Positions 29,922 to 51,627 of a DNA stretch of 64,000 nucleotides are shown piece after piece; position 1 is the first letter of the stretch, and each line of letters begins with the position of its first letter. Source of the stretch: Gemmatimonadota bacterium (GTDB lineage: Bacteria > Gemmatimonadota > Gemmatimonadetes > Longimicrobiales > RSA9); NCBI GenBank assembly GCA_039715185.1, contig JBDLIA010000008.1:4207-68206 (forward strand), read 5' to 3'. The notes beneath the pieces are model-generated. The model was given only the letters and a program-made list of their open reading frames with translations, was not told the DNA's origin and searched no databases. The translations under genes were made by a program, and so were the position numbers.

Positions 29922-30178
29922 GCACGGCGCGGATATCGGGCGAAATCGTTGCTCCGGAGCCATCTTGGGATTAGCTTTTTTGCATGCCTGGCTTCTCCCC
30001 CTTGCCCGGCAAGTAGCCACACATAAGCTGGACCGGTAGTCGGCGGTTCGAGTGACCGCGGGGTCGGCGTGCGCGTCGAATCTCCGCGGGGATGTTGCTC
30101 GGTTCGCCCGCGGCAAGGGCGTAGGGATAGCCGTTCGGTTAGTGCCGCTTGCGGCCGGCCGACGCGAAGGAGGATGAG

Positions 30179-30403
30179 ATGCCAGTACCCACCAAGGGCA
30201 TTGTGGCCCATACGAGGGCATTCTGGCTAGATGAGGCTGGGCAGGATCTGACCGAGTACGCGTTCCTGCTGGCCATTCTGGCGCTCGCGATCGTGGTGAT
30301 GCTGCTCAACTTTCGCGATACGATTGCCAAGGTCATCGGGCAGGCGACGGACTGCCTGAACGCGGTGGAGACCAACAATCCGGGCAGTTGTCCGGGGGGG
30401 TAG
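30179..30403 (+). CDS. flp: Flp/Fap family type IVb pilin precursor
   Basis: Motif EAGQDLTEYAFLLAILALAIVV matches the Flp G/xxxxEY processing motif followed by a hydrophobic helix. AAGGAGGA lies 5 nt upstream of ATG 30179. The track ORF starts earlier, at 30149. Confidence 0.8.
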   Translation: MPVPTKGIVAHTRAFWLDEAGQDLTEYAFLLAILALAIVVMLLNFRDTIAKVIGQATDCLNAVETNNPGSCPGG

Positions 30404-30429
30404 GGACTCGCGCTGACCGGCTGTACCAG

Positions 30430-30460
30430 ACGGCCGCTCCAGTAAGGAGCGGCCGTTTTG
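30430..30460 (+). terminator. Intrinsic terminator downstream of flp
   Basis: Perfect 11-bp stem ACGGCCGCTCC / GGAGCGGCCGT with loop AGTAA, followed by TTTTG. Confidence 0.65.
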
Positions 30461-30478
30461 CGTGGAGAAGCGGCCCCC

Positions 30479-32197
30479 CTAGCCGTCGTCAGATTCGGGC
30501 GACGAGCGGCCCCGCCATGCGGCCTGAAACCGTACCTCGACCGCGCGTGCCTCGGCGTCTCGCCCCTGCGCCTGGAGGCTGCGCTGAAGCCCGAACAGCG
30601 CCCAGCCGTTCTCGGCGTCGCGCCGCAGCGCCTCGCGGTACACGCGCTCCGCTTCTTCGGCCCGCCCGGCCTGGCGCAGGGCCCTGCCGAGGTCCACGCG
30701 CACCGGCGTGGGCCAGTCCGAGGGCTCCATGTGGCCCAGTGCATCCTCCAGCTCGGTCGCGCGGCCGTACGCCGCCGCGGCGGCGTCCCACTGGCCCAGC
30801 GCCGCGGCGATGTCGCCATCGAGCACCAAGCCGGCGATCTCGAGCAGGTCCGTCACCGGATTGACCATGGCCCGGTCACTGCCAGCCGCCCCGGCCGCAG
30901 CAGCCCGCAGGCTGTCCAGCGTGACCCTGGCCCCGTCCACATCGCCCAGAGCCGCCAGAGCGCTGCCCCTGGTCATGTGCCAGACACCTTGCACGTACGG
31001 CGGTAGATCGGGCGGCGGCAGCGTGCCCAGGATGTCCTCCCAGCGACCGAACCGGCGCAGCGCGAGCCAGCCGCGCACCGCGCGGGCCTGCGTGACGCCG
31101 TCGCGCAGGCGCTCGGGCGTAAGCACGCCGGTGGCGTCCCGGGCGAACCGCAGCGCAGGGGGCGCCATGCCCAGCCGCAGTGCGGCCAGGTACAGGATGT
31201 CGTTCGCGTGCGCCGTGTGCGCGAGCGGCGAAAGCCCATAGGTAACGCCGTCCGTGGGAGGGGCGCTCTCACCCCAGGCCTCGGCCAGCATCGCGTCCGC
31301 CGCGATCGACGCGCGGTTGAGCTGCATGGCTCGCACGTATCGCCCAGTCCGCAGGTAAATGTGGGATGCAACGTGCACCAGGTGCCCGGCTCCGGGCGCC
31401 AGCCCACGCAGGGCATCGGCCTTGGGCAGCGCCGACTCTGGCTCGGGGGATCGCTCCAGCAAGCGCACGACGAAGTGGTGCGCGCCGGGGTGCTCTGGGG
31501 CCGATGCGATCGCGGCTTCGAGCGCTTCCCGCGCCTCCTGGGTCCCCGTGGCCGGCTCGCCCGTGGCCGTCCAGTAGGTCCACGGAGAGCGCATCATCAG
31601 GGCCTGCGCCAACAGCGCGGCCGCGTCCGGGTCGTCCGGGCTGGCCACGCGCGCCCGTCGTAGCCCCTCCACGTACGCGGAGTCGGCCGCGGGGCGGCTC
31701 CGACCGTCGGCGTAGCGCTCGGCCATGGCGTCGATGAGCGCCTGGTCCGCGTCGCTGGCGCCGCCCCTCGCGGCCGCCGCGCGCGCCGCGGCCGCGGCGG
31801 CGCCGGCGGGGTCATCGGGCATCCCCAGGTAGCGACTGGTCGGGTTCGGGCCGAGCGCGAGCGCCAGCCCCCAGTACGCCATGGCACAGCCGTCGTCCAG
31901 GCGGATGGCCTCCCGAAACGACGCCGCCGCCTCGGCCGCGTAGTAGGCATACCCCAGGCGCAGGCCCTGGTCGAAGTACGCCACCGCCTCGGTGCCGCAC
32001 CCGGCGATCGAGCGCCGATAGTCGCCGAGGCCGAGGCCCTCCAGGAGCGGGGCGAGCGCGTCCGCGCCAGGCGGCGAAACGTCCGCGGGGAGCGGCGCCG
32101 GCCGGGTCGGCGCCGGGGGCCGGGTCTGGGCACCCGAGCAGGAGGCGGCCAGGGCGACACCGAAGGCCGCGCCGGCCAGGGAAGTTGTGATCCTCAT
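30479..32197 (-). CDS. TPR-repeat lipoprotein
   Basis: 572 aa. Lipobox GVALAASC. Multiple TPR-like helices throughout. Confidence 0.7.
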   Translation of the reverse strand: MRITTSLAGAAFGVALAASCSGAQTRPPAPTRPAPLPADVSPPGADALAPLLEGLGLGDYRRSIAGCGTEAVAYFDQGLRLGYAYYAAEAAASFREAIRLDDGCAMAYWGLALALGPNPTSRYLGMPDDPAGAAAAAARAAAARGGASDADQALIDAMAERYADGRSRPAADSAYVEGLRRARVASPDDPDAAALLAQALMMRSPWTYWTATGEPATGTQEAREALEAAIASAPEHPGAHHFVVRLLERSPEPESALPKADALRGLAPGAGHLVHVASHIYLRTGRYVRAMQLNRASIAADAMLAEAWGESAPPTDGVTYGLSPLAHTAHANDILYLAALRLGMAPPALRFARDATGVLTPERLRDGVTQARAVRGWLALRRFGRWEDILGTLPPPDLPPYVQGVWHMTRGSALAALGDVDGARVTLDSLRAAAAGAAGSDRAMVNPVTDLLEIAGLVLDGDIAAALGQWDAAAAAYGRATELEDALGHMEPSDWPTPVRVDLGRALRQAGRAEEAERVYREALRRDAENGWALFGLQRSLQAQGRDAEARAVEVRFQAAWRGRSSPESDDG

Positions 32198-32225
32198 GAA
32201 CGGTCCGAGGAAGGCGTCGAAAGAA

Positions 32226-32304
32226 TGGGCGTTGAGGGATTCGAACCCTCGACCACCTGCTTGTAAGGCACTCTCTGGGCGCTCGCTCGCGCTAGCCTGC
32301 GCCC
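32226..32304 (-). pseudogene. Degenerate tRNA-Val(TAC)-like sequence (good 3' half, broken acceptor/D/anticodon stems)
   Basis: Minus strand reads GGGCGCAGGCTAGCGCGAGCGAGCGCCCAGAGAGTGCCTTACAAGCAGGTGGTCGAGGGTTCGAATCCCTCAACGCCCA. The T-arm and anticodon loop CTTACAA are intact. Only 5/7 acceptor pairs and 3/5 anticodon-stem pairs form, and there is no canonical D-arm. Confidence 0.6.
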
Positions 32305-32664
32305 ATTTTACAACAACTTACGGGATTTCGCGCTCGCTCCCGCTTGCTCGCGACAGAGGGTTTGACACCGGCAACGACACCGGGTTTGGCCAAGTCGCGG
32401 GACATCAGTTGGGACACGGTCGAACCCCGTCCGTGAGGGCCGAGGATGCACCGGAGCCCCCGAGACAAAGCGGATCGCGGCCTCTCCCAACTGCTCTGAA
32501 AAAACTTCCAGGGATCATGATACCAGGTCTCGCTCTCAAAGCCGCATTTTCGCCCTGATTCCGCTCCGCCAGGGGACATTCCGGGGGTTCGGCCCAAGGG
32601 AACGGGCCTTGCACACCATTGCTCGCGAATGAGAATGAATCGCTGACCGGAAGGGAATCTGCAC

Positions 32665-33087
32665 ATGAAGACGCGCTTGATCTGGATGGCAGCTGCGGCG
32701 GGGCTCGTGCTCTCGGCCTGCGGCGACGATGGCAGTGGCATCGAGGCTCAGGATCTGCGGGGTTCGTGGTCGGCCACGATATACCAGTTGACAGACGACG
32801 CCGACGGACAGAACCAGGTCGATCTGATCCAGCGGGACGGAGCGAGCTTCACCCTGACGGTGGACGCGGCGGGCGTCGCCAGCACCGTCTTCGACGACGG
32901 CGTCGGAGGAACGAGTTCGGACTCCGGCACGCTCGACTCGACCGGCACGACGCTCACGCTGAGCGGCACACCGTTCACCGCGGTCAGGGCCGGCGACGTG
33001 CTGACGCTGAACGACTTCGACGCGTCCTTCGACTTCGGCAGCGGTATGACCGCAGCCTCGCTGCTGATCGTGATGAGCCGGAACTAG
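32665..33087 (+). CDS. Small lipoprotein, hypothetical (beta-rich, lipocalin-like size)
   Basis: 140 aa with lipobox AAGLVLSAC. Thr/Asp/Gly-rich beta-like sequence. Confidence 0.6.
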   Translation: MKTRLIWMAAAAGLVLSACGDDGSGIEAQDLRGSWSATIYQLTDDADGQNQVDLIQRDGASFTLTVDAAGVASTVFDDGVGGTSSDSGTLDSTGTTLTLSGTPFTAVRAGDVLTLNDFDASFDFGSGMTAASLLIVMSRN

Positions 33088-33154
33088 TGTACCGTCGCAC
33101 ACTAGATCGTCGGGGCGAGCCCGGCTTCTTTCCGGGGGCCTCGTTTGCAAGACA

Positions 33155-33200
33155 TGGGCGCTGAGGGATTCGAACCCCCGACCTCCTGCTTGTAAGGCAA
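33155..33200 (-). pseudogene. 3'-half remnant of tRNA-Val(TAC) (anticodon arm to acceptor end), att-like direct repeat
   Basis: Minus strand reads GTTGCCTTACAAGCAGGAGGTCGGGGGTTCGAATCCCTCAGCGCCCA with no matching 5' half upstream. It shares an identical 20-nt stretch with the intact tRNA at 39862..39936. Confidence 0.6.
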
Positions 33201-33430
33201 CACCGGCGCATCCTACAGACGCCAGATCGCCGCGCCAACCCTGGCTATCTGCGTCCCCGGCGTCCGCTGGCGTCGGTACCCGTCCGTGTAGTTTGTCACC
33301 ACGGCTGGCACCGCGTCTAGCGGGTAGGGTGGTCGAAGGGGTCGCATTCGAACCGACCCACCCCGTGGGCTGACCATCCGGGCGTCTGCCGAGTTTGACT
33401 CGCCGGCCACGGCCCGTCATCATCGGCGCG

Positions 33431-33778
33431 ATGCGATTCCGTCGGACGACCCGCGTGGCCGCGTGCTGGTGCCTACTGTCCCTACTGGGGGTTCTGGCCA
33501 CCGGACTGCCCACGCACCACCACGAAGTAGCCGCGAGCGAACTGCGCGAGGAGGGTCAGAGGGCCGCGCCCCTGCATCATTCGCACGGCAGCGAGCTCGT
33601 CGAGCAGGATGAGCGGGTGGTATCGAGCGGCCCCCTGGTCGTTTTCGACGCGATCGAGGTCGGCTTTCTCATGCGGACGACGTCTGTCCCGCTGCCGGTC
33701 GCGGTCACGGCGCCCATTCGTCCCACCGGGCGTGCCCCGCCGCCCGTCGCTCCCCGTGCCCCGCCCCTGACCGTCTGA
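33431..33778 (+). CDS. Small His-rich exported protein upstream of metal efflux operon, hypothetical
   Basis: Start trimmed to MRFRRTTRVAACWCLLSLLGVLATG (signal-like). Contains His clusters THHHE and HHSHG. Its position directly upstream of the czc-type genes suggests metal binding, which is inference. Confidence 0.45.
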   Translation: MRFRRTTRVAACWCLLSLLGVLATGLPTHHHEVAASELREEGQRAAPLHHSHGSELVEQDERVVSSGPLVVFDAIEVGFLMRTTSVPLPVAVTAPIRPTGRAPPPVAPRAPPLTV

Positions 33779-33880
33779 TCTCTCCGGCCACCCGGCCGGC
33801 CACCTCCGTACATCCGTGAAGGAACGACATACGCCCCTCCGGTGAGGGACGAACCGACTGCGGGAGTCTGGCCCGTGCAC

Positions 33881-35140
33881 ATGACTTTGCGATCGACCAT
33901 CTTCGCCGCTACGGCCCTGCTCGCGCTGGCCGCGCCCGCGGAATCGCAGCAGCCGCGCCGCGTCACGCTTGCCGAAGCGCTGGACCTCTTCGCGCGCAAC
34001 AGCCTGGAGCTCAGTCTCGGGCGAGCACAGGCGGCCGAAGCCATGGCGCTTGCGCGTCAGGCGGCGGCGTTCCCGAACCCTGCCGTCGCGACCACACACG
34101 AGCCCCTATCCGACGGCACCGAAGACTACTCGGAGACGTACGTCATGCTGAGTCAGCGACTGGAGTGGCCCGGCGCACGGGCGGCCCGGCGTGCGGCGGC
34201 CTCGGGTACAGCAGACGCGGCGGTCGCGCGGTTCGTTGCGGACAGTTCCCGCCTCGCTTTCGAGGTGAAGCGCGCATTCACCGAAGCCGCGCGCGCCGAG
34301 CGCGTGGAACGCGTGTTGGAGCGCGTGACATCGGTGTTCCGGGAAGGTGCGCGGAGCGCAGAGGTCAGGTACGCCGAGGGCGACATCTCGCTCTACGACA
34401 GCCGCCGAATCCGGGTCGAACGGGCCAAATACGAGACGCTGCTGGCGGAGGCCACGCTCGAGGCGTCAGCTGCGCGCCGGCGGCTGGCGCTTCTCGTGGC
34501 GCCCGTGGCAGAAGCCCTGGAACTCTCGCCCGCCGACTCTCTGGACGGCCTGCCCCCGGCGATCGCCGCCGAGCACGTACTGGAGGACGCCCTCGCCCGG
34601 CGAAGCGACATCGCCGCGGCGGACGCCGCGCTCGAGTCGGCGCGCGCGGGTGCGACGGCCGTCCGCCGCGAGCGCATCCCCGACGTTACGGCCACGGTGG
34701 GCTACAAGACGCAGTCGGACGGATTCGGAGGCGCGTTTCTAGGGCTGTCACTGCCGCTGCCTTTGTGGGACCGCAGGGGCGGCGCGGTCGCGGCAGCCGA
34801 CGCGCGCCTGCAAGCAGCACAATCGCGCCGCTCCCTGGTCCGTCGTCAGGTCGAAAACGATATGCGGCGCGCGTTGGAGGCCTACAGATCGCTGCGGCGG
34901 CGGGTCGAGTTGCTCGCCGAGTCTCGACCGGACGAGGGCGCCGACCTGCTGGCGATCGCTCGCGCGGCGTACGCGGAGGGAGAGTTGGAGTTGATCGCGC
35001 TGTTCGATGCGGCGGAGGCCCTGCTGGAAGCGCAGACCGCCGAGGTGAGCCTGCGCGCGGACCTGTGGACCGCTTACTACGACATTGAACGTGCCGCCGG
35101 GGGCTTCGACGGCTCGTTGGACCGAGGAGATGACCGATGA
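33881..35140 (+). CDS. TolC-family outer membrane efflux protein (CzcC/CusC-like)
   Basis: Start trimmed to MTLRSTIFAATALLALAAPAESQQ (signal peptide). Two-repeat helical OMF-like sequence. Stop overlaps the next gene's start (35137-35140). Confidence 0.8.
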   Translation: MTLRSTIFAATALLALAAPAESQQPRRVTLAEALDLFARNSLELSLGRAQAAEAMALARQAAAFPNPAVATTHEPLSDGTEDYSETYVMLSQRLEWPGARAARRAAASGTADAAVARFVADSSRLAFEVKRAFTEAARAERVERVLERVTSVFREGARSAEVRYAEGDISLYDSRRIRVERAKYETLLAEATLEASAARRRLALLVAPVAEALELSPADSLDGLPPAIAAEHVLEDALARRSDIAAADAALESARAGATAVRRERIPDVTATVGYKTQSDGFGGAFLGLSLPLPLWDRRGGAVAAADARLQAAQSRRSLVRRQVENDMRRALEAYRSLRRRVELLAESRPDEGADLLAIARAAYAEGELELIALFDAAEALLEAQTAEVSLRADLWTAYYDIERAAGGFDGSLDRGDDR

Positions 35141-36639
35141 TGAACGCGAGCCCTCAGGGAGGGCGGGCGGCCCGCAGGCTGGTAGCGGCGATCGCGTTTG
35201 CCGCCCTCGCTCCAGCGGGATGCGCCGTGGCGCCGGAGCCCCAAGCCGATGAGCCCGGCAGCGTGGTGGTGACCCAGTGGAACGACTCGACGGAGCTGTT
35301 CCTGGAATACCCGCATCTCCTGGCGGGGGAGCCCACGGGGAACTGGGCGATCCACCTGACCGACATGCAGGACTTCAAGCCGATCAGGGCGGGCGCGCTG
35401 ACCGTGCGCTTTCTGGACGGCCCCGCCGCGCAGAGGTTCACCGTCGCGGATGTAGCCCGAGACGGGATCTTCCTGCTCGATCCCGTCGTCGAGCGGCCCG
35501 GCACGTACACGGTCGAGCTGACCCTGGAGAGCCCGCAGGCTCGCAGCCGCCACGTCCTGTCCGAGGTGAAGGTGTACGCGGATGAGGGGGAGCTTCCGCG
35601 AGCGGAAGAGGAGGCCGCCGGCGGCATCGCGTTCCTCAAAGAGCAGCAGTGGCAGATCCCGTTCGCGGTCACGGCGGTCGGGGAGGAAACGGTGCGGCGT
35701 ACGGTCGCGGCACCCGGGGAGATCGTCGCCCCCGACGGCGCGCTCGTGCTGGTGAGCGCACCCGTCGATGGAATCGCCGCGGCCGGCGCTAACAGGAGCG
35801 CGCCGTCGGTAGGGCAGACCGTGCGCGCGGGTCAGGTCCTGGCAGTGTTGTCGCCCACCACTCAGGAGGGTGGCTTCGCGCAGATCAGGGCGAGCGTCGA
35901 GCGGCTCGAGCGCGAAGTGGCCCGAGCGGAACGCCTCTACGAGGCCGGTGCCATCGCCGAAAAGCGGCTCGAGGAAGCGCGCCACGACCTGGCGGTGACG
36001 CGAGCGCAGGCCGCGTCCCTGGGGGCTTCGGGGACGGCTGGAGACTACCTACTGCGCATCACCTCGCCCATCTCGGGCGTGGTCGCGCGCCGGGCCTTCG
36101 TACCCGGCGGGCGGGTGGCCGCGGGCGAGTCGCTCTTCACGATCGTAGACCCTCGCAACGCGTGGCTGCGCGCTCACGTCCCTGCCTCCGTTGCGGCCTC
36201 GGTCCCGGCTGACGCCACGGCCTTCTTCACGGTGGAGGGCGATGAAGCGATCCACGAGACGGCGCGTCTGATCTCCGTCGGTAGCGTCCTGGATCCCGAG
36301 ACGCGCACGGTCCCGGTGACCTTTCTGCTGGCGGACGGCGGCCGGCCGATCGCCTTCGGCCAGCTCGCCCAGGCCGCCGTCCCCACCGGCGACGCCGTCA
36401 CTGGGATCGTGATTCCGAATCGCGCCATCATTGACGACAACGGCACACCCGTCGCCTATGTGCAGGCGGGCGGAGAGACCTTCGAGCGCCGAGTCCTCAC
36501 ACTCGGGGCCACCGACGGGGCAGTTACCCAGGTGGTGGCAGGGATCGACAGCGGGGAGATGGTCGTGACGACCGGCGCGTATCAGGTGCGTCTGGCATCC
36601 ATGTCCGGCGGCGATTTCGCCGGCGGCCACGCGCACTGA
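35137..36639 (+). CDS. Efflux RND periplasmic adaptor (CzcB/CusB-like membrane fusion protein)
   Basis: 500 aa with lipobox-like ALAPAGC. Barrel-sandwich hybrid/hairpin signatures (ERLEREVARAERLYEAGAIAEKRLEEAR). Operonic with the RND pump. Confidence 0.85.
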   Translation: MMNASPQGGRAARRLVAAIAFAALAPAGCAVAPEPQADEPGSVVVTQWNDSTELFLEYPHLLAGEPTGNWAIHLTDMQDFKPIRAGALTVRFLDGPAAQRFTVADVARDGIFLLDPVVERPGTYTVELTLESPQARSRHVLSEVKVYADEGELPRAEEEAAGGIAFLKEQQWQIPFAVTAVGEETVRRTVAAPGEIVAPDGALVLVSAPVDGIAAAGANRSAPSVGQTVRAGQVLAVLSPTTQEGGFAQIRASVERLEREVARAERLYEAGAIAEKRLEEARHDLAVTRAQAASLGASGTAGDYLLRITSPISGVVARRAFVPGGRVAAGESLFTIVDPRNAWLRAHVPASVAASVPADATAFFTVEGDEAIHETARLISVGSVLDPETRTVPVTFLLADGGRPIAFGQLAQAAVPTGDAVTGIVIPNRAIIDDNGTPVAYVQAGGETFERRVLTLGATDGAVTQVVAGIDSGEMVVTTGAYQVRLASMSGGDFAGGHAH

Positions 36640-36649
36640 GGGGGCCACC

Positions 36650-39600
36650 ATGCTCGATTCATTGGTTCGGTGGTCGCTCGAGAACAGGCTTCCGGTAGTC
36701 GGCGCGGCGGGCCTCCTGCTCGCGGCCGGCACCATTACCGCAGTTCGGATGCCCGTCGACGTCTTCCCCGACCTCACTGCGCCCACGGTGGCCGTGCTCA
36801 CCGAGGCCCACGGGATGGCCCCCGAGGAGGTCGAGACGCTCGTCACCTTCCCGATCGAGACGGCCGTCAACGGGGCCACCGGCGTACGCCGCGTCCGCTC
36901 GTCCACGTCGCAGGGGATCAGCATCGTGTGGGTGGAGTTCGACTGGGGCACGGACATCTACCGGGCGCGTCAGATCGTCAACGAGAAGCTGCAGCTCGTG
37001 GGCGCCACCCTGCCGACGGAGGCCGGGCCTCCGGTGCTCGCTCCGATTTCATCGATCATGGGCGAGATCATGCTCATCGCTATCACCGGCGATGAAGGCG
37101 CATCGGAAATGGACATGCGCACGGTCGCCGACTGGACGGTGCGGCGCCGGCTGCTCGCGGTCCCGGGAGTGTCCCAGGTCATTCCGCTCGGCGGCGAGGT
37201 GCGTCAGTACCAGGTCCTCGTCGACCCCGACCGCCTCGCCGCTTACGACGTCACGCTCGAGGAGGTCGCGGGCGCGGCGGAGGGCTCGAACGTGAACGCC
37301 TCAGGCGGGGTGTTCATGGAGGGCGGGCAGGAGTACCTGATCCGCGCAACCGGCCGGGTCCAGACGATCGGGGACATCGGCGCCACGGTCGTCGCCGAGC
37401 GTGGCGGGACTCCTGTGCTGATCCGGGATGTCGCGGACGTACGCGTGGGAGCGGGAGTGCCGATCGGCCGTGGCTCGGCGAACGCCTCTTCCGCCGTAAT
37501 CCTGTCCATACAGAAGCAGCCCGATACGAACACGCTGGAGTTGACCGAGCGTATCGACCGGACGCTCGCCGACATCGAGGAGAGCCTGCCGGTGGGCATC
37601 TCGATCAACCGCGGGATCTTCCGACAGTCGAGCTTCATCGAGACGGCCATCGACAACGTGCTCGAGGCGCTGAGGGACGGGGCGATTCTGGTGGTCGTGA
37701 TCCTGTTCCTTTTCCTGTGGAGCTTCCGTACGACCTTCATATCCGTCCTGGCGATCCCGCTCTCGCTGGTCACGGCGGTGTTCGCCCTGAAACTCCTCGG
37801 GATCACCATCAACACGATGACCCTCGGGGGGATGGCCATCGCGATCGGCGCTCTGGTGGACGACGCGGTGATCTTCGTGGAGAACTCCTTCCGCAGGCTC
37901 CGCGAAAACTCGCTCCTGCCCCAGGCCGAGCAGAAACCCCCGCTCTCGGTCGTGTTCCTGGCGGCGCGGGAGATCCGCGACAGCATCGTCACAGCGACTT
38001 TCATCATCGGCATCGTCTTCGTGCCGCTCTTCTTTCTCAGCGGCGTCGAGGGCCGGATGCTCCAGCCTCTGGGGGTGGCCTACATCGTCTCCATCATGGC
38101 CTCGCTAGCGGTAGCGTTGACCGTTACGGCAGCGCTCAGCGCTTACCTGCTGCCTCGCTCCGCAGCCACCGAGGCGAGCCGCGACAGCTGGGTCGTGCGC
38201 ACGCTCAAGGCGGGCTACGCCCGGACGCTGGATGTGGCGCTTCGGCGGCCGGTGTCTGTAATGGCGGGGTCCGGACTGCTGGTGCTGGCCGCGGTCGCCG
38301 TCGTGCCGGTGCTGGGGCGGTCGTTCCTCCCGGAGTTCCAGGAGGGCACCCTGGTCATCAGTGCCATAACGCTTCCAGGGACGTCCCTCGACGAGTCTGA
38401 CGCGCTCGGCCGGCGCGTCGAGGAGATCCTGCTGGCACACCCGGCGGTGGTCGAAACGGCCCGCCGCACCGGCCGCGCCGAGTTGGACGAGCACGCGCAG
38501 GGTGCCAACGCCGCGGAAATCGACGTGCGGCTGGACCTCGAGGGCCATGTTTACGAGGAGGTGGCCGAGGAGCTACGCCGGAATCTGGGTGCCGTGCCCG
38601 GCACGCAGATCACCATCGGGCAGCCGATCGGCCATCGCATCGATCACATGCTCTCGGGGACTCGCGCGAGCATCGCCGTCAAGGTGTTCGGGCCGGAGCT
38701 GCGGGAGCTGCGCGCGCTGGCAGCCGAGGTCGAGGCGGCGATGGTGGATGTGCCCGGCACGGCGGACGTCGCGGTGGAGCAGCAGGCCGACGTACCGCAG
38801 GTGCGGGTGACGATGGACCGCGCGGCCATGGCGCGTCACGGCGTAACCCCCCAGCACCTCGCTCTGGCCATAGATGTCGCGTTCGCCGGAGAGGCGGTAT
38901 CGCAGGTTCTGGAGGAGCAGCGGAGCTTCGATCTCGTGGTCCGCTTCGCGGAACGGCACCGGGGCAGCTTGGAGGCCGTCCGGGCCGCACGCGTCAGCGT
39001 TCCAACGGGCGCACAGGTCCCCCTGTCCTCCCTCGCCGACGTGCGCCGGGACGTCGGGCCGAACATGATTTCGCGGGAGAACGTGCAGCGTAAGATCGTC
39101 GTCCAGGCGAACGTAGCCGGACGGGACGTGGGCAGCGTCGTCGAGGACATCCGCGGCCGCGTCGGCCGAGAGGTCCGGCTCCCACCGGGCTACTACGTGG
39201 AGTACGGGGGACAGTTCGAGTCGGCGGAGCAGGCGACCCGGCGGATCACGCTCCTCTCGCTGCTCTCGCTCGCCGCCATCGTCCTGCTGCTCTACATGGA
39301 GTTCCGGTCGATCCGGCAGGCCCTACTCGTGATGGTCAACCTGCCCCTGGCCCTCGTGGGGGGCGTGTTCGCGGTGCTCGTCACGGGTGGAGTGCTGAAC
39401 GTCGCCACGCTCGTGGGCTTCATAACGCTTTTCGGGATCGCGGTCCGGAACGGCATCCTGATGGTATCCCACTACAACCACCTGCTGGGCGAGGGAGAAT
39501 CGCTCCGGGAGGCCGTGTGGCGGGGCTCCATGGAGCGCCTCAACCCGGTCTTCATGACCGCCTTGACCGCGGGGCTGGCTCTGCTGCCCCTGGCCCTCGC

Positions 39601-39745
39601 GGGAGGCGAACCCGGCAACGAGATCCAGAGCCCGATGGCCGTGGTGGTGCTCGGCGGCCTGCTGACCTCGCTGGCGCTCAACATGGTGGTGGTACCGGTG
39701 CTGTTCCTGCGCCACGGTGTGGCGGACGCTCGGCCCAGGACGTGA
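36650..39745 (+). CDS. CusA/CzcA-family heavy-metal efflux RND transporter
   Basis: 1031 aa. N-terminus MLDSLVRWSLENRLPVV...VDVFPDLTAPTV.VLTEA.GMAPEEVE is characteristic of HME-RND pumps. 12-TM architecture. Confidence 0.9.
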   Translation: MLDSLVRWSLENRLPVVGAAGLLLAAGTITAVRMPVDVFPDLTAPTVAVLTEAHGMAPEEVETLVTFPIETAVNGATGVRRVRSSTSQGISIVWVEFDWGTDIYRARQIVNEKLQLVGATLPTEAGPPVLAPISSIMGEIMLIAITGDEGASEMDMRTVADWTVRRRLLAVPGVSQVIPLGGEVRQYQVLVDPDRLAAYDVTLEEVAGAAEGSNVNASGGVFMEGGQEYLIRATGRVQTIGDIGATVVAERGGTPVLIRDVADVRVGAGVPIGRGSANASSAVILSIQKQPDTNTLELTERIDRTLADIEESLPVGISINRGIFRQSSFIETAIDNVLEALRDGAILVVVILFLFLWSFRTTFISVLAIPLSLVTAVFALKLLGITINTMTLGGMAIAIGALVDDAVIFVENSFRRLRENSLLPQAEQKPPLSVVFLAAREIRDSIVTATFIIGIVFVPLFFLSGVEGRMLQPLGVAYIVSIMASLAVALTVTAALSAYLLPRSAATEASRDSWVVRTLKAGYARTLDVALRRPVSVMAGSGLLVLAAVAVVPVLGRSFLPEFQEGTLVISAITLPGTSLDESDALGRRVEEILLAHPAVVETARRTGRAELDEHAQGANAAEIDVRLDLEGHVYEEVAEELRRNLGAVPGTQITIGQPIGHRIDHMLSGTRASIAVKVFGPELRELRALAAEVEAAMVDVPGTADVAVEQQADVPQVRVTMDRAAMARHGVTPQHLALAIDVAFAGEAVSQVLEEQRSFDLVVRFAERHRGSLEAVRAARVSVPTGAQVPLSSLADVRRDVGPNMISRENVQRKIVVQANVAGRDVGSVVEDIRGRVGREVRLPPGYYVEYGGQFESAEQATRRITLLSLLSLAAIVLLLYMEFRSIRQALLVMVNLPLALVGGVFAVLVTGGVLNVATLVGFITLFGIAVRNGILMVSHYNHLLGEGESLREAVWRGSMERLNPVFMTALTAGLALLPLALAGGEPGNEIQSPMAVVVLGGLLTSLALNMVVVPVLFLRHGVADARPRT

Positions 39746-39817
39746 ACCGAGGCGGGCTCGCAGGCAGCTCCCCACCAGCGGCTGACACCGCGCCCGTTCA
39801 CTGTCGAATGACGAAAG

Positions 39818-39856
39818 AGCCCTCGCAACCGTAACCAACTGCGAGGGCTTCTTTTC
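39818..39856 (+). terminator. Intrinsic terminator after RND pump gene
   Basis: 10-bp stem AGCCCTCGCA / TGCGAGGGCT with a 12-nt loop, followed by TCTTTTCC. It abuts the 3' end of the tRNA on the opposite strand. Confidence 0.6.
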
Positions 39857-39861
39857 CGCGA

Positions 39862-39936
39862 TGGGCGCTACTGGATTCGAACCAGTGACCTCCTGCTTGT
39901 AAGGCAGGCGCTCTGGACCAACTGAGCTAAGCGCCC
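39862..39936 (-). tRNA. tRNA-Val(TAC): tRNA-Val, anticodon TAC
   Basis: Minus strand reads GGGCGCTTAGCTCAGTTGGTCCAGAGCGCCTGCCTTACAAGCAGGAGGTCACTGGTTCGAATCCAGTAGCGCCCA. This gives a full cloverleaf: 7-bp acceptor, GCTC/GAGC D-stem, CCTGC/GCAGG anticodon stem, loop CTTACAA, ACTGG/CCAGT T-stem. CCA is not encoded. Confidence 0.9.
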
Positions 39937-40153
39937 TGTAACGAGTTACGACCCTTTCGAGTGATCGATCCTTGGGGGTAAGGGCACCTTTAGGGCCCAC
40001 ACGTAGGCTGTCCCGGCGGCACACCCCCTTCCCTGCCGCCACCAAGTCTAATCCACAGGACGAGGGGACAGAAGGGACGGAAAGTCACGGAGGACCAGTA
40101 GCCTCGGGGCCCAACCCCGTGCACACGGGACTTTCTGCGCCGGCACACTCACG

Positions 40154-41074
40154 CTAGTAACGGCCTGGATCGGGGTACGCGGTGCGAAGTGCGGCGGCGG
40201 CTTCAGGGTCGTGGCTGGGCAGGATCACGAGGTCGGGCATGCGCTCACGCAGTGCCCGCACCCGACTGTAGCTTTCGAGAAGCGTCTCCCGGTCTCCCGT
40301 GCCCGGGAGGCGGCCTTCCATCAGCATGTCGACGGAGTAGCAGAGGTCTCCCACAAGCAGAAGCGGTGGTCTCCCGCCGCTCCTCACCAGCATCGAAAGC
40401 GATCCCGGCAGGTGTCCGGGAGTCGGCAGGAGCATCATCGAGGCGTCGCCCAGCAGGTCGTATGCCCGGGTGAACGGAGCCAGCGTCGGGTCGTTCGTCG
40501 GCGGAAGCGTGATCTGACGCCACTTCGCGCCGGGAATATCAATGTCCCGGCGGAGAACCATCTCCCGCTCCGGGTGAGGTCCGAGCATGTGCTGCCAGGC
40601 CTCGGCGCTCACGACCAGCTCCGCTTGGGGGATCTCGCGGATGCACCCGACGTGGTCGGCGTGGAGGTGCGAGATGACGGCCATGCGCACGTCGCCTGCC
40701 TCGTAGCCCGCGGCTGCGAGTCGCTCCGTGAGCGTGTCCTCCGGTCCGAGTCGGAGCCGGAAGATGTGCCGCATGAAGAAGGCGGTGACGCGATCGGGCC
40801 AGTAGTCGGGATCCGTGACGACGGCCCTGTCCTGGCCGGCGTCGAACAGGATCAGTCCGTCGGAGTGCTCTATCACATAGACGTTGATCGGCAGACGTAC
40901 CCAACTCCGACCCGCGAAAATCCACCAGAGCGCGGGCTTCCTGGTGCCCCGGACGTGCTCTCGGTGCGCCTCACCCCAGCCCGTGCTGATGACAGCAGCC
41001 CGCCGGATCTGACGTTGGCCATGCGGGAACGCCTCCTTGGGCTCGGCGTCGGGTCCTTTGGCTACGGTCTCCAT
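40154..41074 (-). CDS. MBL-fold metallo-hydrolase (lactonase-like)
   Basis: 306 aa with HxHxDH motif SHLHADHVG. Divergent from the TetR gene. Confidence 0.8.
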   Translation of the reverse strand: METVAKGPDAEPKEAFPHGQRQIRRAAVISTGWGEAHREHVRGTRKPALWWIFAGRSWVRLPINVYVIEHSDGLILFDAGQDRAVVTDPDYWPDRVTAFFMRHIFRLRLGPEDTLTERLAAAGYEAGDVRMAVISHLHADHVGCIREIPQAELVVSAEAWQHMLGPHPEREMVLRRDIDIPGAKWRQITLPPTNDPTLAPFTRAYDLLGDASMMLLPTPGHLPGSLSMLVRSGGRPPLLLVGDLCYSVDMLMEGRLPGTGDRETLLESYSRVRALRERMPDLVILPSHDPEAAAALRTAYPDPGRY

Positions 41075-41257
41075 CTTCGATTAGTTGCAGGCCCTGGGTA
41101 AGCTTCGGAACTGCGCTTAGTCTAAATGAAGGCGAGTCGACGGTCTGTCGGGCTCTGCTTGAGAGCGATGTGGGGGAAGACCCCTCAGTCACGGCTCAGA
41201 TTCGAGAGAATGGCCCACTGCTCATCCCGCACCGCAGCGCGAATCTCCGACGCTCCC

Positions 41258-41286
41258 TTGACAAATCCTACCCGAAGGTAAAAAAT
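41258..41286 (+). promoter_or_regulatory. Candidate sigma70-type promoter for the TetR/benzoyl-CoA operon
   Basis: TTGACA (41258-41263) followed 15-17 nt later by TAAAAAAT in an unusually AT-rich patch, about 30 nt upstream of the proposed TetR start. Confidence 0.35.
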
Positions 41287-41316
41287 CTACTAAGAGTTCA
41301 AAACAGGATAGGGCCT

Positions 41317-41928
41317 GTGTCTCGACAAGCCACGTTGACCGTCTCACCGCACGTTCGCGAGAAGCGGAAGCGGAGGCGCGCGGAGATTCTCCACGCCGCC
41401 CTCGCGACCGTCCGTGATCGGGGCTATCACGCCACCACCCTCGACCATATCGCCGAGCGCCTGGGCGTTCGGAAGGCCGCGCTCTACCACTACTTCCCGG
41501 ACAAGGACTCCATCCTCTACGCCTGTCACAAGGAGTCGTTGGCGGAGCTGGATCGGATGATCGAAGAGTCGGCGTCGTGCTGCACCTCGCACGGTGCACA
41601 ACTCGCGCACCTCATTCGCGAGCACGTGCGCGTCATGACGGAGAAGCTCGAGGGATCCCCTCTCGCCTTCGAGGTCTCCGCCCTCTCCCCCGAGCGCCGC
41701 GCCGAAATCATCGCGGGCAGGGATCGCTTCGAGCGCGTTCTACGCGAACTGGTGGCCGGAGGTGTCGAGAACGGTGAGTTCCGGGACGTGGATCCGAAGA
41801 TCGCGGTGTTCGCGATCCTGGGGGCCATCAACTGGATCGCGCGCTGGTACGACCCCGCAGGCGGAATCGACGGCACCGAGTTGGGCGATCAGTTCGCGGA
41901 TCTGCTCATAGGGGGGCTGGTGGAGTGA
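41317..41928 (+). CDS. TetR/AcrR family transcriptional regulator
   Basis: HTH ILHAALATVRDRGYHATTLDHIAERLGVRKAALYHYF. Start moved to in-frame GTG 41317, downstream of the promoter-like site, giving about 203 aa (typical TetR size). The track ORF begins at 41170. Confidence 0.8.
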   Translation: MSRQATLTVSPHVREKRKRRRAEILHAALATVRDRGYHATTLDHIAERLGVRKAALYHYFPDKDSILYACHKESLAELDRMIEESASCCTSHGAQLAHLIREHVRVMTEKLEGSPLAFEVSALSPERRAEIIAGRDRFERVLRELVAGGVENGEFRDVDPKIAVFAILGAINWIARWYDPAGGIDGTELGDQFADLLIGGLVE

Positions 41929-41929
41929 C

Positions 41930-42985
41930 ATGAGGGCGGTACGATTGCTGGCGCCTTCGGCGCCGCTGGAAGTCTTGGATGTCGAGCAGCCCACGGCGGG
42001 CGCCGACGAGGTCATCGTGCGCGTCGCCGGGTGCGGCGTCTGTCACACCGACATCGGCTTCTGGAGGGACGGAGTACCCACCCGGCACCCCCTCCCCATC
42101 ACGCTCGGCCACGAGATCTCCGGAGTGGTGGTCGACGCCGGAAGCGACTTCACCCACCTGCTCGATCGCGAGGTCATCGTGCCTTCGGTGATCCCTTGCG
42201 GCGCGTGCGACCTCTGCCTGTCCGGACGCGGCAACGTGTGCCTGTCCCAACTGATGCCGGGCAACGACATGGACGGCGGCTTCGCCGACTACATCAAGGT
42301 GCCCGGCCGCGGCATCTGCACGGTGGACGACAGGGGAGAGCTGGAGCTCGCCGAGCTGTCCGTCGTCGCGGACGCCGTGACTACCCCCTATCAGGCGGTG
42401 GTGCGGAGCGGTCTTCGGCCAGGGGACATGGCGATCGTGGTGGGCGTGGGAGGCGTCGGCGCGCACTGCGTGCAGATCGCCGCCGCGCTCGGCGCGCGTG
42501 TCGTCGCCATCGACGTCGAACCCGTCCGTCTCGAGCGCATCGCCTCCTTTGGAGCGTCGCTCTGCGTCGACTCCAGCCAGGCGGCGTTCAAGGAGCTCCG
42601 GAGTCAGGTCCGCGATGCCGCGAGCAGGTGGGGCTGTCCGGCGCACGGCTGGAAGATCTTCGAGTGCTCCGGGCATCCCGCCGGCCAGGAGACCGCGTTC
42701 GGGCTGTTGAACCACGCGGCGACGCTCATGCTCGTGGGCTTCACTCTGGAGAAGGTGAACGTCCGCCTGAGCAATCTCATGGCGTTCGACGCGACCGCGC
42801 AGGGCACGTGGGGCTGCAAGCCCGAATTGTATCCCGCGGCGCTGGAGCTGGTGACCAGCGGGAAGATCGCGCTGCGCCCCTTCATCCAGACCTTTCCGCT
42901 GGCCGACGGGCCATCGGTGATCCGCAAGGTGGCGGATCACGAGATCGGCCGCCGCGCGATCCTCACACCGGACGGAGCCGGCTGA
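41930..42985 (+). CDS. had: Zn-dependent alcohol dehydrogenase family; likely 6-hydroxycyclohex-1-ene-1-carbonyl-CoA dehydrogenase
   Basis: 351 aa with GCGVCHTD and GHEISGVV zinc-ADH motifs. The functional call comes from its position directly upstream of the oah/bamA-like gene and the BCR genes. Confidence 0.7.
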   Translation: MRAVRLLAPSAPLEVLDVEQPTAGADEVIVRVAGCGVCHTDIGFWRDGVPTRHPLPITLGHEISGVVVDAGSDFTHLLDREVIVPSVIPCGACDLCLSGRGNVCLSQLMPGNDMDGGFADYIKVPGRGICTVDDRGELELAELSVVADAVTTPYQAVVRSGLRPGDMAIVVGVGGVGAHCVQIAAALGARVVAIDVEPVRLERIASFGASLCVDSSQAAFKELRSQVRDAASRWGCPAHGWKIFECSGHPAGQETAFGLLNHAATLMLVGFTLEKVNVRLSNLMAFDATAQGTWGCKPELYPAALELVTSGKIALRPFIQTFPLADGPSVIRKVADHEIGRRAILTPDGAG

Positions 42986-44100
42986 TGCCGACTCAAGGAG
43001 AGAGCATGCAGCAGTTGAAGAGTCACACGCTGGTTCCCGAGCGAGAGTTCTCGGAGATCCTGTACGAGCTCCGCCCGGCGCTCGACCCCTCGGGCGCCCC
43101 GGTCGAGGGCCTGCACAACGCCTGGATAAGCCTCGACAACGCGGCTCAATACAACAGCTACACGACCGCAGCGGTGAAGGAGCTGATCCTCGCCTTCCGG
43201 CAGGCCTCGATGGATCGGAGCGTGGTCGCCGTGGTCTTTACCGCGGTGGGGGACAAGGCGTTCTGCACGGGGGGCAATACCAAGGAGTACGCCGAGTATT
43301 ACGCCGGCAACCCGCAGGAATACAAGCAGTACATGCGCCTGTTCAACGACATGATCGACGGCATTCTCCGGTGCGACAAGCCCGTGGTGAACAGGGTGAA
43401 CGGCATGCGGGTCGCCGGCGGTCAGGAGATCGGCATGGCGTGCGATTTCACCATCGCCGCCGACACCGCCCGTTTCGGCCAGGCCGGCCCGAAACACGGT
43501 TCCGCACCCGACGGAGGATCGACCGACTTCCTGCCGCTCTACGTGGGCTTCTCGAGGGCGATGGAAAGCGGCGTTTTGTGCGAAATGTGGAGCGCACACA
43601 AGGCGCTCTTCTACGGCTTGATCAACGAGGTCGTCCCGGTCCTCAAGCTCGGCGACGACTGGATTCCCAACCCCCTCGTCGTGACGGACCGCTTCCTGGG
43701 GCCGTTCGGAGCCCTCGACTTCGGTGATTTCAGGACCGGAGACGAGCTGGTCGCCGCCAAGGCGATCATGGCCGACGCCGCAACCGACCATAGCCTTCTG
43801 GACCGGGCCGTGGAGGCGCTGTGCACGAAGGTCCTGATGCTGATGCCGGACTGCACGTCGAAGACGGTCAACAGCCTGCGCAAGCACAAGCAGAAGCACT
43901 GGGATTTGAACGCGATCACCAATCGCGAGTGGTTGGGTCTGAACATGATGACCGAAGGGAAGGCCGGCTTCCGCGCGTTCAACGAGGGACCCAAGGGCCG
44001 CCGAGAGGTCGACTTCATCGAACTTCGGCAGCGTCTAGCCCGGGGGCATCCGTGGGACGATGAGCTCATCCGGGCTATCTCGCCGCAGTTCGACGGCTGA
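42985..44100 (+). CDS. oah: 6-oxocyclohex-1-ene-1-carbonyl-CoA hydrolase (ring-cleaving crotonase, Oah/BamA)
   Basis: Crotonase-fold protein of about 365-371 aa (VVFTAVGDKAFCTGGN...VNGMRVAGGQEIGMACDF) with the long C-terminal extension typical of Oah/BamA. Start is ATG 42985 (TGATG overlap with had) or ATG 43006 (AAGGAG upstream). Track ORF 42031..44100 is an over-extension. Confidence 0.75.
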   Translation: MPTQGESMQQLKSHTLVPEREFSEILYELRPALDPSGAPVEGLHNAWISLDNAAQYNSYTTAAVKELILAFRQASMDRSVVAVVFTAVGDKAFCTGGNTKEYAEYYAGNPQEYKQYMRLFNDMIDGILRCDKPVVNRVNGMRVAGGQEIGMACDFTIAADTARFGQAGPKHGSAPDGGSTDFLPLYVGFSRAMESGVLCEMWSAHKALFYGLINEVVPVLKLGDDWIPNPLVVTDRFLGPFGALDFGDFRTGDELVAAKAIMADAATDHSLLDRAVEALCTKVLMLMPDCTSKTVNSLRKHKQKHWDLNAITNREWLGLNMMTEGKAGFRAFNEGPKGRREVDFIELRQRLARGHPWDDELIRAISPQFDG

Positions 44101-44125
44101 TCGGCGGGTAAGGGAGACGGCGCGC

Positions 44126-44872: not shown

Positions 44873-44906
44873 CGGCGCGCCGAGAGCGGCGGGGAGTAGA
44901 CGAATA

Positions 44907-46828: not shown

Positions 46829-46838
46829 GGAGCGGGAG

Positions 46839-48299: not shown

Positions 48300-48311
48300 A
48301 GGGGAGCCCGC

Positions 48312-50286: not shown

Positions 50287-50293
50287 GCGCGTG

Positions 50294-51613: not shown

Positions 51614-51627
51614 GAAAGCGCTCCGGG

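What the first reader, a model, noticed from the sequence alone, without database searches (positions are those of the whole stretch)
32226..39936. Metal-efflux operon sits between an intact tRNA-Val(TAC) and two degenerate direct copies of its 3' half: tandem integrase-less islands?
Seen: an intact 75-nt tRNA-Val lies on the minus strand at 39862..39936. Beyond its 3' end lie two more minus-strand copies of the anticodon-arm-to-acceptor portion, at 33155..33200 and 32226..32270. The latter extends to 32304 as a broken 79-nt tRNA-like sequence. The 20-nt stretch gacctcctgcttgtaaggca (plus-strand spelling) is identical in the intact gene and the 33155 copy, with one mismatch in the 32226 copy. 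The T-stems differ (ACTGG/CCAGT, GGGGG/CCCTC, GAGGG/CCCTC). Established: tyrosine-recombinase elements integrate into tRNA 3' ends and leave a direct repeat of that end at the distal border. Inference: 33201..39861 (His-rich protein + czcCBA-type pump) and 32271..33154 (a lipoprotein) were acquired by successive integrations at tRNA-Val. No integrase remains in either segment.
Basis: partly seen in the sequence, partly recalled or inferred. Interest (0 to 1): 0.6.

Follow-up and report, generated by a model that had tools for sequence, protein, structure and literature searches.

The report
Integration scars at tRNA-Val flanking czc operon
Two leftover copies of the back half of a valine tRNA gene mark where mobile DNA once inserted next to that gene in a Gemmatimonadota genome, leaving a metal-efflux operon and a small lipoprotein gene but no integrase; this is a decayed example of a very common kind of genomic island.

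Summary
There is one intact tRNA-Val(TAC) at 39862-39936 (-). Two 45-nt direct copies of its 3' part lie at 33155-33199 and 32226-32270. These are the only three copies in the 3.66-Mb MAG.

Both copies lose similarity at the same point, 3 nt before the anticodon loop. Three integrase-bearing tRNA islands in the same genome have repeats that start at this point too. So do displaced tRNA-Val(TAC) fragments in other Gemmatimonadota genomes. The copies are therefore displaced attR-type fragments, not decayed tRNA genes.

All six differences between copy 2 and the resident 3' half are three compensatory T-stem base pairs. The copy-2 45-mer is also the exact 3' end of intact tRNA-Val(TAC) genes in four other species. 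It is therefore a different functional allele.

The czcCBA operon has no counterpart in either same-genus genome, and its nearest relative found is 82% identical in another genus.

Evidence against or missing:
- Composition is not atypical.
- No integrase or integrase remnant remains.
- No empty site could be shown, because same-genus contigs break at this locus.
- Two successive integrations cannot be told apart from one composite arrival.

This is a decayed, cargo-only member of a known kind. Interest is low.

The parts
39862..39936 (-). Intact tRNA-Val(TAC), the only UAC-anticodon valine tRNA in the assembly. Its 3' 45 nt (39862-39906) is the attL-equivalent copy, with T-stem ACTGG/CCAGT.
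   Evidence: ARAGORN; Rfam RF00005 77.3 bits; one tRNA-Val each for GAC, CAC and TAC in the genome. The resident 45-mer is the exact 3' end of tRNA-Val(TAC) in 14 other species.
33155..33199 (-). Copy 2: a displaced tRNA-Val(TAC) 3' fragment (internal attR-type site) with T-stem GGGGG/CCCTC. It is 39/45 identical to the resident copy, and all 6 differences form 3 compensatory T-stem pairs.
   Evidence: The exact 45-mer lies inside intact tRNA-Val(TAC) genes in 4 other Gemmatimonadota species. The sequence 5' of it is unrelated to the tRNA.
32226..32270 (-). Copy 3: the distal displaced 3' fragment, with T-stem GAGGG/CCCTC. It is 37/45 identical to the resident copy and 42/45 to copy 2. It ends 28 nt upstream of the TPR gene start.
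   Evidence: Scored as a whole tRNA it reaches only 19.2 bits, E 5.8. No similarity to the tRNA 5' half.
33200..39861 (+). Segment 1, between the tRNA and copy 2. It holds only a heavy-metal RND efflux operon: His-rich ORF 33395-33778, OMF (czcC-like) 33842-35140, MFP (czcB-like) 35137-36639, and CzcA/CusA-family pump 36650-39745. A hairpin terminator at 39819-39855 is shared with the convergent tRNA.
   Evidence: Pfam OEP, HlyD_3/HlyD_D23 and ACR_tran. TIGR00914 scores 824 bits against a cut-off of 701. No same-genus counterpart. 82% aa and 73% DNA identity to G022 over 33482-39712 only. Terminator read from the sequence.
32271..33154 (+). Segment 2, between copy 2 and copy 3. It has 394 nt of non-coding DNA and then one 140-aa lipoprotein gene at 32665-33087.
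   Evidence: Codon-position GC (GC3 0.86) supports coding. No Pfam or NCBIfam hit. There are 72 homologues at 47-70% identity; two are named Gemmatimonadota/Longimicrobiales and most are unnamed. All 7 contexts inspected differ.
33330..33357 (-). Orphan T-arm + acceptor strand + CCA fragment from a different, unidentified tRNA. It lies inside segment 1, 130 nt from copy 2, and may be an older att scar.
Evidence: T-arm-like motifs run at about 27 per Mb genome-wide, real tRNAs included. No tRNA of this genome matches it (at least 6 of 25 mismatches), and this genome's tRNA genes do not encode CCA. No exact source among GTDB species representatives.
33085..33106 (.). A 22-nt sequence, CTAGTGTACCGTCGCACACTAG, made of the two outermost termini of the genome's ~165-bp MITE-like repeat. 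It looks like a deletion or excision scar and sits just after the lipoprotein stop codon.
   Evidence: Compared by eye with the MITE consensus; sequence. Weak blastn hits of this spot to other contigs.
40119..40149 (+). A truncated 31-nt terminal repeat of the same MITE-like family (about 59 copies, many at contig ends). It lies between the tRNA 5' side and the MBL-fold gene and marks a rearrangement junction.
30479..32197 (-). TPR lipoprotein gene flanking copy 3. It is not part of the genus backbone either.
   Evidence: TPR Pfam hits. Best same-genus homologues are only 41% identical. Genus synteny with G002:C10 stops at about 30386.
40154..41074 (-). MBL-fold (AttM/AiiA-like lactonase) gene on the 5' side of the tRNA. 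It has no orthologue in the same genus.
   Evidence: Pfam Lactamase_B. NCBIfam AttM-family hit is below its cut-off. No close homologue in 40 relatives.

Best explanation
The two partial copies are displaced tRNA 3' fragments (attR-type scars). They were left by tyrosine-integrase elements that recombine in the anticodon loop of tRNA-Val(TAC).

Such an element carries its own copy of the tRNA from the anticodon stem to the 3' end. Integration rebuilds a working gene from the host 5' half and the element's 3' half, and pushes the previous 3' half to the far end of the insert.

On this model:
- Copy 3 is the oldest 3' end.
- Copy 2 came with an earlier element.
- The present ACTGG/CCAGT T-arm came with the latest insert, which now consists only of the czcCBA metal-efflux operon.
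- The integrase and other element genes were later deleted. What remains is two cargo-only segments bounded by att copies that still share an identical 15-20-nt anticodon-arm core.

Shown: the repeats, their boundary, the allele status of copy 2, the absence of an integrase, and the lack of a czc counterpart in either same-genus genome.

Inferred: the order of events, that czc and the lipoprotein gene arrived as element cargo, and that an integrase was once present.
For: 1. There are three copies only in 3.66 Mb, all in direct orientation on the 3' side of the gene.

2. Both fragments lose similarity to the tRNA at the same base, 3 nt 5' of the anticodon loop. Upstream sequence is unrelated to the tRNA (P = 0.42).

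3. The same genome provides internal controls. All three have an integrase, and their perfect repeats start 0-3 nt before the anticodon loop and run to the 3' end:
- tRNA-Leu(CAA), 55 nt repeat, 7.9 kb, integrase frameshifted.
- tRNA-Thr(TGT), 44 nt repeat, 11.3 kb.
- tRNA-Lys(TTT), 43 nt repeat, 4.4 kb.
Integrase-less remnants also exist at tRNA-Gly(TCC) and, in tandem, at tRNA-Ser(TGA).

4. Other Gemmatimonadota genomes hold tRNA-Val(TAC) fragments starting at position 30, at least two of them with a tyrosine integrase nearby. Three species have an integrase abutting the 3' end of tRNA-Val(TAC).

5. All 6 differences between copy 2 and the resident 3' half fall in 3 T-stem base pairs and keep pairing. 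Copy 2's 45-mer is the exact 3' end of intact tRNA-Val(TAC) genes in 4 species, and the resident 45-mer in 14.

6. czcA has no match in either same-genus genome. It is 82% identical in another genus and 73% in another family. Vertical che-operon proteins are 81-86% identical within the genus and 42-57% within the family.

7. None of about 87 homologous czc loci sits beside tRNA-Val(TAC).

8. An orphan fragment of a foreign tRNA 3' end lies inside the czc segment.
Against: - No integrase, excisionase or remnant lies in either segment or anywhere on the contig.
- Segment 1 is almost exactly the czc operon plus promoter and terminator. Loss of every other element gene would have had to be very clean.
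- GC content and tetranucleotide profile of 33-39 kb are typical of the genome (19th-67th percentile).
- No empty site could be shown. Both same-genus MAGs break at the edges of this region, and family-level relatives share no 3' flank with this genome.
- CzcA of this type is about 60% identical even across phyla, so 82% is not in itself proof of recent transfer.
- In one other genome a homologous lipoprotein gene lies 2.9 kb from an orthologous czcCBA with no tRNA fragment between them. This weakens the idea of two independent acquisitions.
- The arms next to the fragments match none of the tRNA-Val-associated elements found elsewhere.
Confidence: 0.7

Rival explanations
1. There was one arrival, not two. 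A composite element or tandem array that already held an internal att copy entered tRNA-Val in a single event. Alternatively, the czc operon and/or the lipoprotein gene were inserted later, by MITE/IS-mediated or homologous recombination, into an already decayed island. In that case the att scars do not delimit what the integrase delivered.
For: - Segment 1 equals the operon almost exactly, and DNA homology to G022 covers only 33482-39712.
- MITE-end scars lie at 33085-33106 and 40119-40149.
- Lipoprotein and czc homologues lie 2.9 kb apart in another genome.
- The whole 30.4-51.6 kb stretch lacks genus synteny.
- tRNA-Val lies 300-450 bp from the che operon in at least 10 other genera, but 11.9 kb from it here.
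Against: - Copies 2 and 3 differ at 3 positions, and each differs from the resident allele. Three distinct 3' halves fit serial replacement more simply.
- In the reference set of about 83 czc loci, none carries the lipoprotein gene.
Confidence: 0.2
2. The copies are remains of a tandem array of tRNA-Val(TAC) genes whose extra members decayed into pseudogenes. No mobile element was involved.
For: - Rfam aligns 32226-32304 to the whole tRNA model and 33157-33236 to tRNA-Sec, both weakly (19.2 and 22.7 bits, E 5.8 and 0.98).
- Short GC-rich 5' stretches can pair with the 3' acceptor strand.
Against: - Both scores are below the gathering thresholds.
- The 5' regions show only chance similarity to the tRNA.
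- Both copies are cut at the same base, the one used by integrase-bearing islands in this genome.
- Random decay would not leave 45 nt nearly intact beside a 5' half that is completely unrecognisable.
- The spacers are 0.9 and 6.7 kb and hold protein genes, unlike the tRNA arrays of this genome (contig C12).
Confidence: 0.05
3. The similarity is due to chance or to convergent T-arm-like sequence.
For: None beyond the general GC-richness of the genome.
Against: - A 20-nt exact core occurs only at these three sites in 3.66 Mb.
- blastn-short gives E 2e-7 and 5e-5 within the window.
- The full 45-mer of copy 2 is identical to real tRNA genes elsewhere.
Confidence: 0.01

Closest known systems
tRNA-gene-targeted genomic islands with an anticodon-centred attachment site (class 'A' of Williams 2002 NAR 30:866; Islander database, PMC4383910)
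   Same: An intact tRNA gene is followed by direct repeats of its 3' part, starting in the anticodon arm and ending at the tRNA 3' end. The regenerated gene and the displaced fragment mark the ends of the insert. Islander lists 2083 of 3919 islands with this site class and 125 tandem arrays. Three complete examples occur in this same genome.
   Different: Neither segment has an integrase, so Islander's filters would reject it. The fragments are not identical to the resident copy but carry other T-stem alleles. The inserts are reduced to one operon and one gene. Composition is not atypical.
CIMEs (cis-mobilizable elements) and site-specific accretion of ICEs/IMEs in streptococci (reviewed in PMC5704250 and PMC7563491)
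   Same: DNA segments bounded by attL and attR but lacking recombination and transfer genes. Tandem arrays with an internal att site arise by repeated integration at one target.
   Different: Mobilisation in trans is not shown here. The phylum and the target gene differ. I did not read those papers beyond title and abstract, so the comparison rests on general knowledge.
pSAM2-type integrative elements of actinomycetes (att identity from the anticodon loop to the 3' end of tRNA-Pro)
   Same: The same geometry of the identity segment.
   Different: Those elements keep int/xis and replication or transfer genes. No relation to them was tested.
CzcCBA / CusCBA heavy-metal RND efflux systems
   Same: OMF, MFP and an HME-RND pump in operon order C-B-A. 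The pump passes TIGR00914.
   Different: A His-rich leader ORF precedes the operon. Metal specificity is unknown. czcC and czcB hits are below the equivalog cut-offs.

Membership tests
tRNA-targeted genomic island (Islander criteria) | An intact tDNA plus a cognate tDNA fragment on the same replicon, in direct orientation on the 3' side | tested here: met
tRNA-targeted genomic island (Islander criteria) | The fragment boundary falls at a known crossover sublocation (anticodon loop, T loop, or T/acceptor junction) | tested here: met
   Identity starts 3 nt before the anticodon loop. Integrase-bearing islands of the same genome start 0-3 nt before it, as do tRNA-Val fragments in other genomes.
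tRNA-targeted genomic island (Islander criteria) | A tyrosine integrase gene inside the island | tested here: not met
   No PF00589 hit on contig C232. No remnant in 30000-41200 (best tblastn E 0.47).
tRNA-targeted genomic island (Islander criteria) | The insert is absent from close relatives (an empty site exists) | tested here: inconclusive
   czc has no match in either same-genus genome. Their contigs end at both edges of the locus, and tRNA-Val(TAC) itself is not assembled in them. The read-level test was unavailable.
tRNA-targeted genomic island (Islander criteria) | Composition differs from the host genome | tested here: not met
   Tetranucleotide distance of 33-39 kb lies at the 19th-67th percentile of genome windows. 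GC is 0.66-0.71, like the flanks.
CIME-like integrase-less element | Bounded by att copies with an intact crossover core, and with no recombination or transfer genes | tested here: met
   The 20-nt core is identical in the gene and copy 2, and the 15-nt anticodon-arm core is identical in all three. The only genes are czc or the lipoprotein.
CIME-like integrase-less element | Excision or mobilisation by a cognate integrase supplied in trans | not testable with these tools
Functional tRNA (for copies 2 and 3) | A complete cloverleaf scoring above the Rfam or ARAGORN thresholds | tested here: not met
   ARAGORN finds one tRNA only. Rfam gives 19.2 and 22.7 bits, below the gathering scores of 29 and 47.
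CusA/CzcA heavy-metal efflux RND | The pump scores above the TIGR00914 cut-off, with adjacent MFP and OMF genes | tested here: met
   824 bits against a cut-off of 701. OEP and HlyD domains.

The most novel reading that the evidence does not exclude
The czc segment may still be a mobilisable, integrase-less, CIME-like element. Its attL and attR keep an identical 20-nt anticodon-arm core, so a tRNA-Val-specific integrase supplied in trans could excise and move the metal-efflux operon. Such integrases sit next to this tRNA in other Gemmatimonadota. The three T-arm alleles would then be a readable record of successive donors that each rewrote the 3' half of an essential single-copy tRNA.
Probability: 0.15. 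Interest if true: 0.4.

Novelty: new member of a known kind. Interest (0 to 1): 0.2.

Why it matters
The finding gives a clean worked example from Gemmatimonadota, a phylum represented in this analysis almost entirely by MAGs. It shows how tRNA-targeted elements leave cargo-only islets that integrase-dependent island finders miss. It also shows that an essential single-copy tRNA gene can have its T-arm swapped for another functional allele by integration. The displaced fragments supply the evidence that the metal-efflux operon is accessory DNA, which base composition does not reveal. The mechanism itself is textbook, so the value lies in annotation and ecology (metal resistance as accessory DNA) rather than in concept.

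Tried and rejected
1. Empty-site search in 40 relatives. No shared 3' flank was found. The ancestral 3' block of other genera lies on other contigs of this MAG, C226 and C135.

2. Same-genus synteny. The backbone stops at about 30386 and resumes at about 51630, but G001 and G002 contigs end there.

4. Exact-protein look-up of the lipoprotein. It is not on record.

5. Context of the 80 best czcA loci, plus G022, G032 and others. None has tRNA-Val(TAC), Val fragments or a consistent integrase.

6. Seven lipoprotein contexts. None has tRNA-Val.

7. Search for a displaced 5' half near the che operon, to explain the 11.9-kb gap on the tRNA 5' side. Nothing was found.

8. Source of the orphan CCA fragment. 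There is no match in this genome's tRNAs and no exact match among GTDB representatives.

9. Arms next to the fragments compared with tRNA-Val-associated elements elsewhere. No hits.

10. Using the tRNA 5' half to tell whether the gene is a hybrid. The D-loop varies too little to be informative.

11. My vertical marker was translated from the antisense frame. The 53% figure from that call should be ignored. One search gives the right values.
Full report
**What is there**

ARAGORN finds a single tRNA in the 64-kb window, tRNA-Val(TAC) at 39862-39936 on the minus strand. Rfam scores it at 77.3 bits. It is the only UAC-anticodon valine tRNA in the 3.66-Mb, 253-contig assembly, which also has one GAC and one CAC gene.

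Two partial copies lie downstream of its 3' end on the same strand, at 33155-33199 and 32226-32270. In tRNA sense they begin at the third base of the 5' strand of the anticodon stem and run through the discriminator base plus one T.
- Copy 2 is 39/45 identical to the resident sequence.
- Copy 3 is 37/45 identical.
- The two copies are 42/45 identical to each other.

The one detail that fails is the '79-nt broken tRNA'.
- Rfam gives it 19.2 bits, E 5.8.
- The 40 nt upstream of either copy align to the tRNA 5' half no better than random genome segments (P = 0.42).

**Why these are integration scars and not dead tRNA genes**

Both copies lose similarity to the tRNA at exactly the same base. I searched every tRNA of the genome against the assembly and found three islands that still have a tyrosine integrase next to the tRNA:
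- tRNA-Leu(CAA): a perfect 55-nt repeat, 7.9 kb away. The integrase is frameshifted into two pieces.
- tRNA-Thr(TGT): a perfect 44-nt repeat, 11.3 kb away.
- tRNA-Lys(TTT): a perfect 43-nt repeat, 4.4 kb away.

In all three the repeat starts 0-3 nt before the anticodon loop and ends at the tRNA 3' end. That is the geometry of the tRNA-Val copies.

The same genome also has integrase-less remnants at tRNA-Gly(TCC) (34 nt, 1.3 kb) and two tandem ones at tRNA-Ser(TGA). Decay to cargo-only islets is therefore common in this organism.

This is the anticodon-centred site class that accounts for 2083 of 3919 islands in Islander, which also records 125 tandem arrays (PMC4383910).

tRNA-Val(TAC) is a repeated target outside this genome too.
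- In the 18 species that share one of the two 45-mers, displaced fragments starting at position 30 occur in at least four genomes. One of these holds two fragments 7.3 kb apart on one contig, and two of the fragments have an integrase within 1 kb.
- Three species have an integrase directly abutting the 3' end of the gene.
- 5'-half fragments also occur.

**The T-arm alleles**

All six differences between copy 2 and the resident 3' half fall in three T-stem base pairs and preserve pairing: A-T to G-C, C-G to G·T, and T-A to G-C. Six random changes in 45 nt would fill three of the five T-stem pairs with a probability of about 1e-6, on simple counting.

Copy 2's 45-mer is the exact 3' end of intact tRNA-Val(TAC) genes in four other Gemmatimonadota species. 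The resident 45-mer is found in 14 species. Both T-stem types also occur among family-level relatives.

Copy 2 is therefore not degenerate. It is the 3' half of another functional allele. This is what the integration model predicts, because the element supplies a new 3' half and displaces the old one. Copy 3 differs from copy 2 at three positions, one of which turns the G·U pair into A-U.

**The inserted DNA**

Segment 1 (33200-39861) contains only a metal-efflux operon and a terminator hairpin that it shares with the convergent tRNA:
- a His-rich ORF;
- an OMF;
- an MFP;
- a CusA/CzcA-family pump (TIGR00914, 824 bits against a cut-off of 701).

Segment 2 (32271-33154) contains one 140-aa lipoprotein gene with no family assignment.

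No other ORF with coding-type codon bias is present. There is no integrase remnant.

The czc operon has no counterpart in either same-genus genome, by protein or by DNA search.
- Its best relatives are 82% identical in another genus (with the His-rich ORF conserved at 42%) and 73% in another family.
- Vertically inherited che-operon proteins are 81-86% identical within the genus and 42-57% within the family.
- DNA homology to the closest operon covers 33482-39712 only.
- None of the 80 best czcA loci in GTDB representatives, nor the seven fetched from relatives, lies beside tRNA-Val(TAC) or carries Val fragments.

The lipoprotein family has 72 homologues at 47-70% identity. Two are named Gemmatimonadota or Longimicrobiales, and most are unnamed. 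It sits in a different context in each of seven genomes inspected.

**Evidence against, and limits**

- Composition is not foreign. The 3-kb windows across 33-39 kb fall at the 19th-67th percentile of genome-wide tetranucleotide distance, and GC matches the flanks. The likely donors are other Gemmatimonadota of similar GC, so this is weak evidence.
- No empty site could be shown. Genus-level synteny (G002:C10) ends at about 30386, after the Flp pilin gene, and resumes at about 51630. Same-genus contigs end at both edges, and tRNA-Val(TAC) is not assembled in either.
- The read-level test was unavailable.
- CzcA of this type is about 60% identical even across phyla.
- In one genome a lipoprotein homologue lies 2.9 kb from an orthologous czcCBA with no tRNA fragment between them. 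The two segments may therefore not be independent acquisitions.

**Wider context**

In at least ten other genera, tRNA-Val(TAC) lies 300-450 bp downstream of the last gene of the che/Mgl operon, the homologue of 51853-53091. Here 11.9 kb intervene. They hold an MBL-fold lactonase-like gene, a TetR gene and the benzoyl-CoA cluster. Most of this has no same-genus counterpart.

No displaced 5' tRNA half was found to explain this gap. However, a truncated 31-nt end of a ~165-bp MITE-like repeat lies at 40119-40149. This family has about 59 copies, and 30 of 50 hits lie within 300 bp of a contig end. A 22-nt scar made of its two termini lies at 33085-33106.

An orphan T-arm/acceptor/CCA fragment of an unidentified tRNA lies at 33330-33357, inside the czc segment.

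The finding thus sits inside a roughly 21-kb mosaic (30.4-51.6 kb) shaped by several kinds of mobile DNA.

**Verdict**

The fragments are displaced att-type tRNA halves from anticodon-loop integration (confidence about 0.7). It remains open whether exactly two successive integrations delivered czc and the lipoprotein gene, or whether a composite arrival or later insertion into a decayed island did so.

This is a decayed, integrase-less member of a very well-known class. The allele-swapped T-arm is a good illustration of the mechanism, not a new one.

Noticed in passing
window 40119-40149 and 33085-33106; about 59 copies genome-wide (for example C210:44493-44521, C113:19629-19657): A ~165-bp MITE-like repeat with imperfect terminal inverted repeats (start CTAGTGTACCGTTGCAGAAGTCCCGT, end ACGGGACTTCCGCGCCGGCACAC followed by TAG). 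30 of 50 blast hits lie within 300 bp of a contig end, so it appears to fragment the assembly. The window holds a truncated end and a 22-nt termini-only scar.
   Followed up: partly
window 33330-33357 (-): An orphan tRNA 3' fragment (T-arm, acceptor strand, A, CCA) from a tRNA that matches none in this genome. This genome's tRNA genes do not encode CCA. It may be an older att scar that travelled with the czc DNA. No exact source was found among GTDB representatives.
   Followed up: partly
window 39937-51852: In at least 10 other genera, tRNA-Val(TAC) lies 300-450 bp downstream of the last che/Mgl-operon gene. Here 11.9 kb intervene (MBL-fold lactonase-like gene, TetR, benzoyl-CoA cluster, a lipoprotein). 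Apart from TetR and the start of the next gene, this stretch has no DNA match in either same-genus genome. No displaced 5' tRNA half was found.
   Followed up: partly
window 51853-59800: Codon-position GC (GC3 0.84-0.89) and identity to same-genus genomes show these genes are on the minus strand: 81-86% aa identity on the minus frame against about 53% for the plus-strand frame. A plus-strand translation of 57366-59165 is an antisense artefact that still gives significant hits.
   Followed up: partly
genome contigs C2:5413-13438, C35:14808-26163, C191:11597-16040, C49:3612-4967, C180:18344-22158, C229/C4: At least six further tRNA-associated islands or remnants in the same MAG. Three have integrases (one frameshifted) and perfect 43-55-nt repeats. 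Two are integrase-less. One spans two contigs.
   Followed up: partly
G027:C1:16079-16114, G042:C3:1572817-1572859, G052:C20:107695-107738, G055:C203:2679-2720, G047:C233:12853-12894: 5'-half fragments (positions 1 to about 42) of tRNA-Val(TAC) in other Gemmatimonadota. In one genome an integrase lies on the 5' side of the gene (L182; L188 has one there too, without a 5' fragment). These suggest islands of the rarer type that displace the 5' part.
   Followed up: no
window 32665-33087 (+); homologues P0002-P0072: A 140-aa lipoprotein family with no Pfam or NCBIfam model. Homologues are 47-70% identical; the few named ones are Gemmatimonadota or Longimicrobiales. The gene is monocistronic and lies in a different neighbourhood in every genome inspected, three times next to transposases.
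   Followed up: partly
window 40026-40078 against C240:13486-13538: The region upstream of tRNA-Val shares an 83%-identical 53-nt stretch with the region upstream of tRNA-Pro(TGG) on another contig. It may be a shared tRNA promoter or leader element.
   Followed up: no
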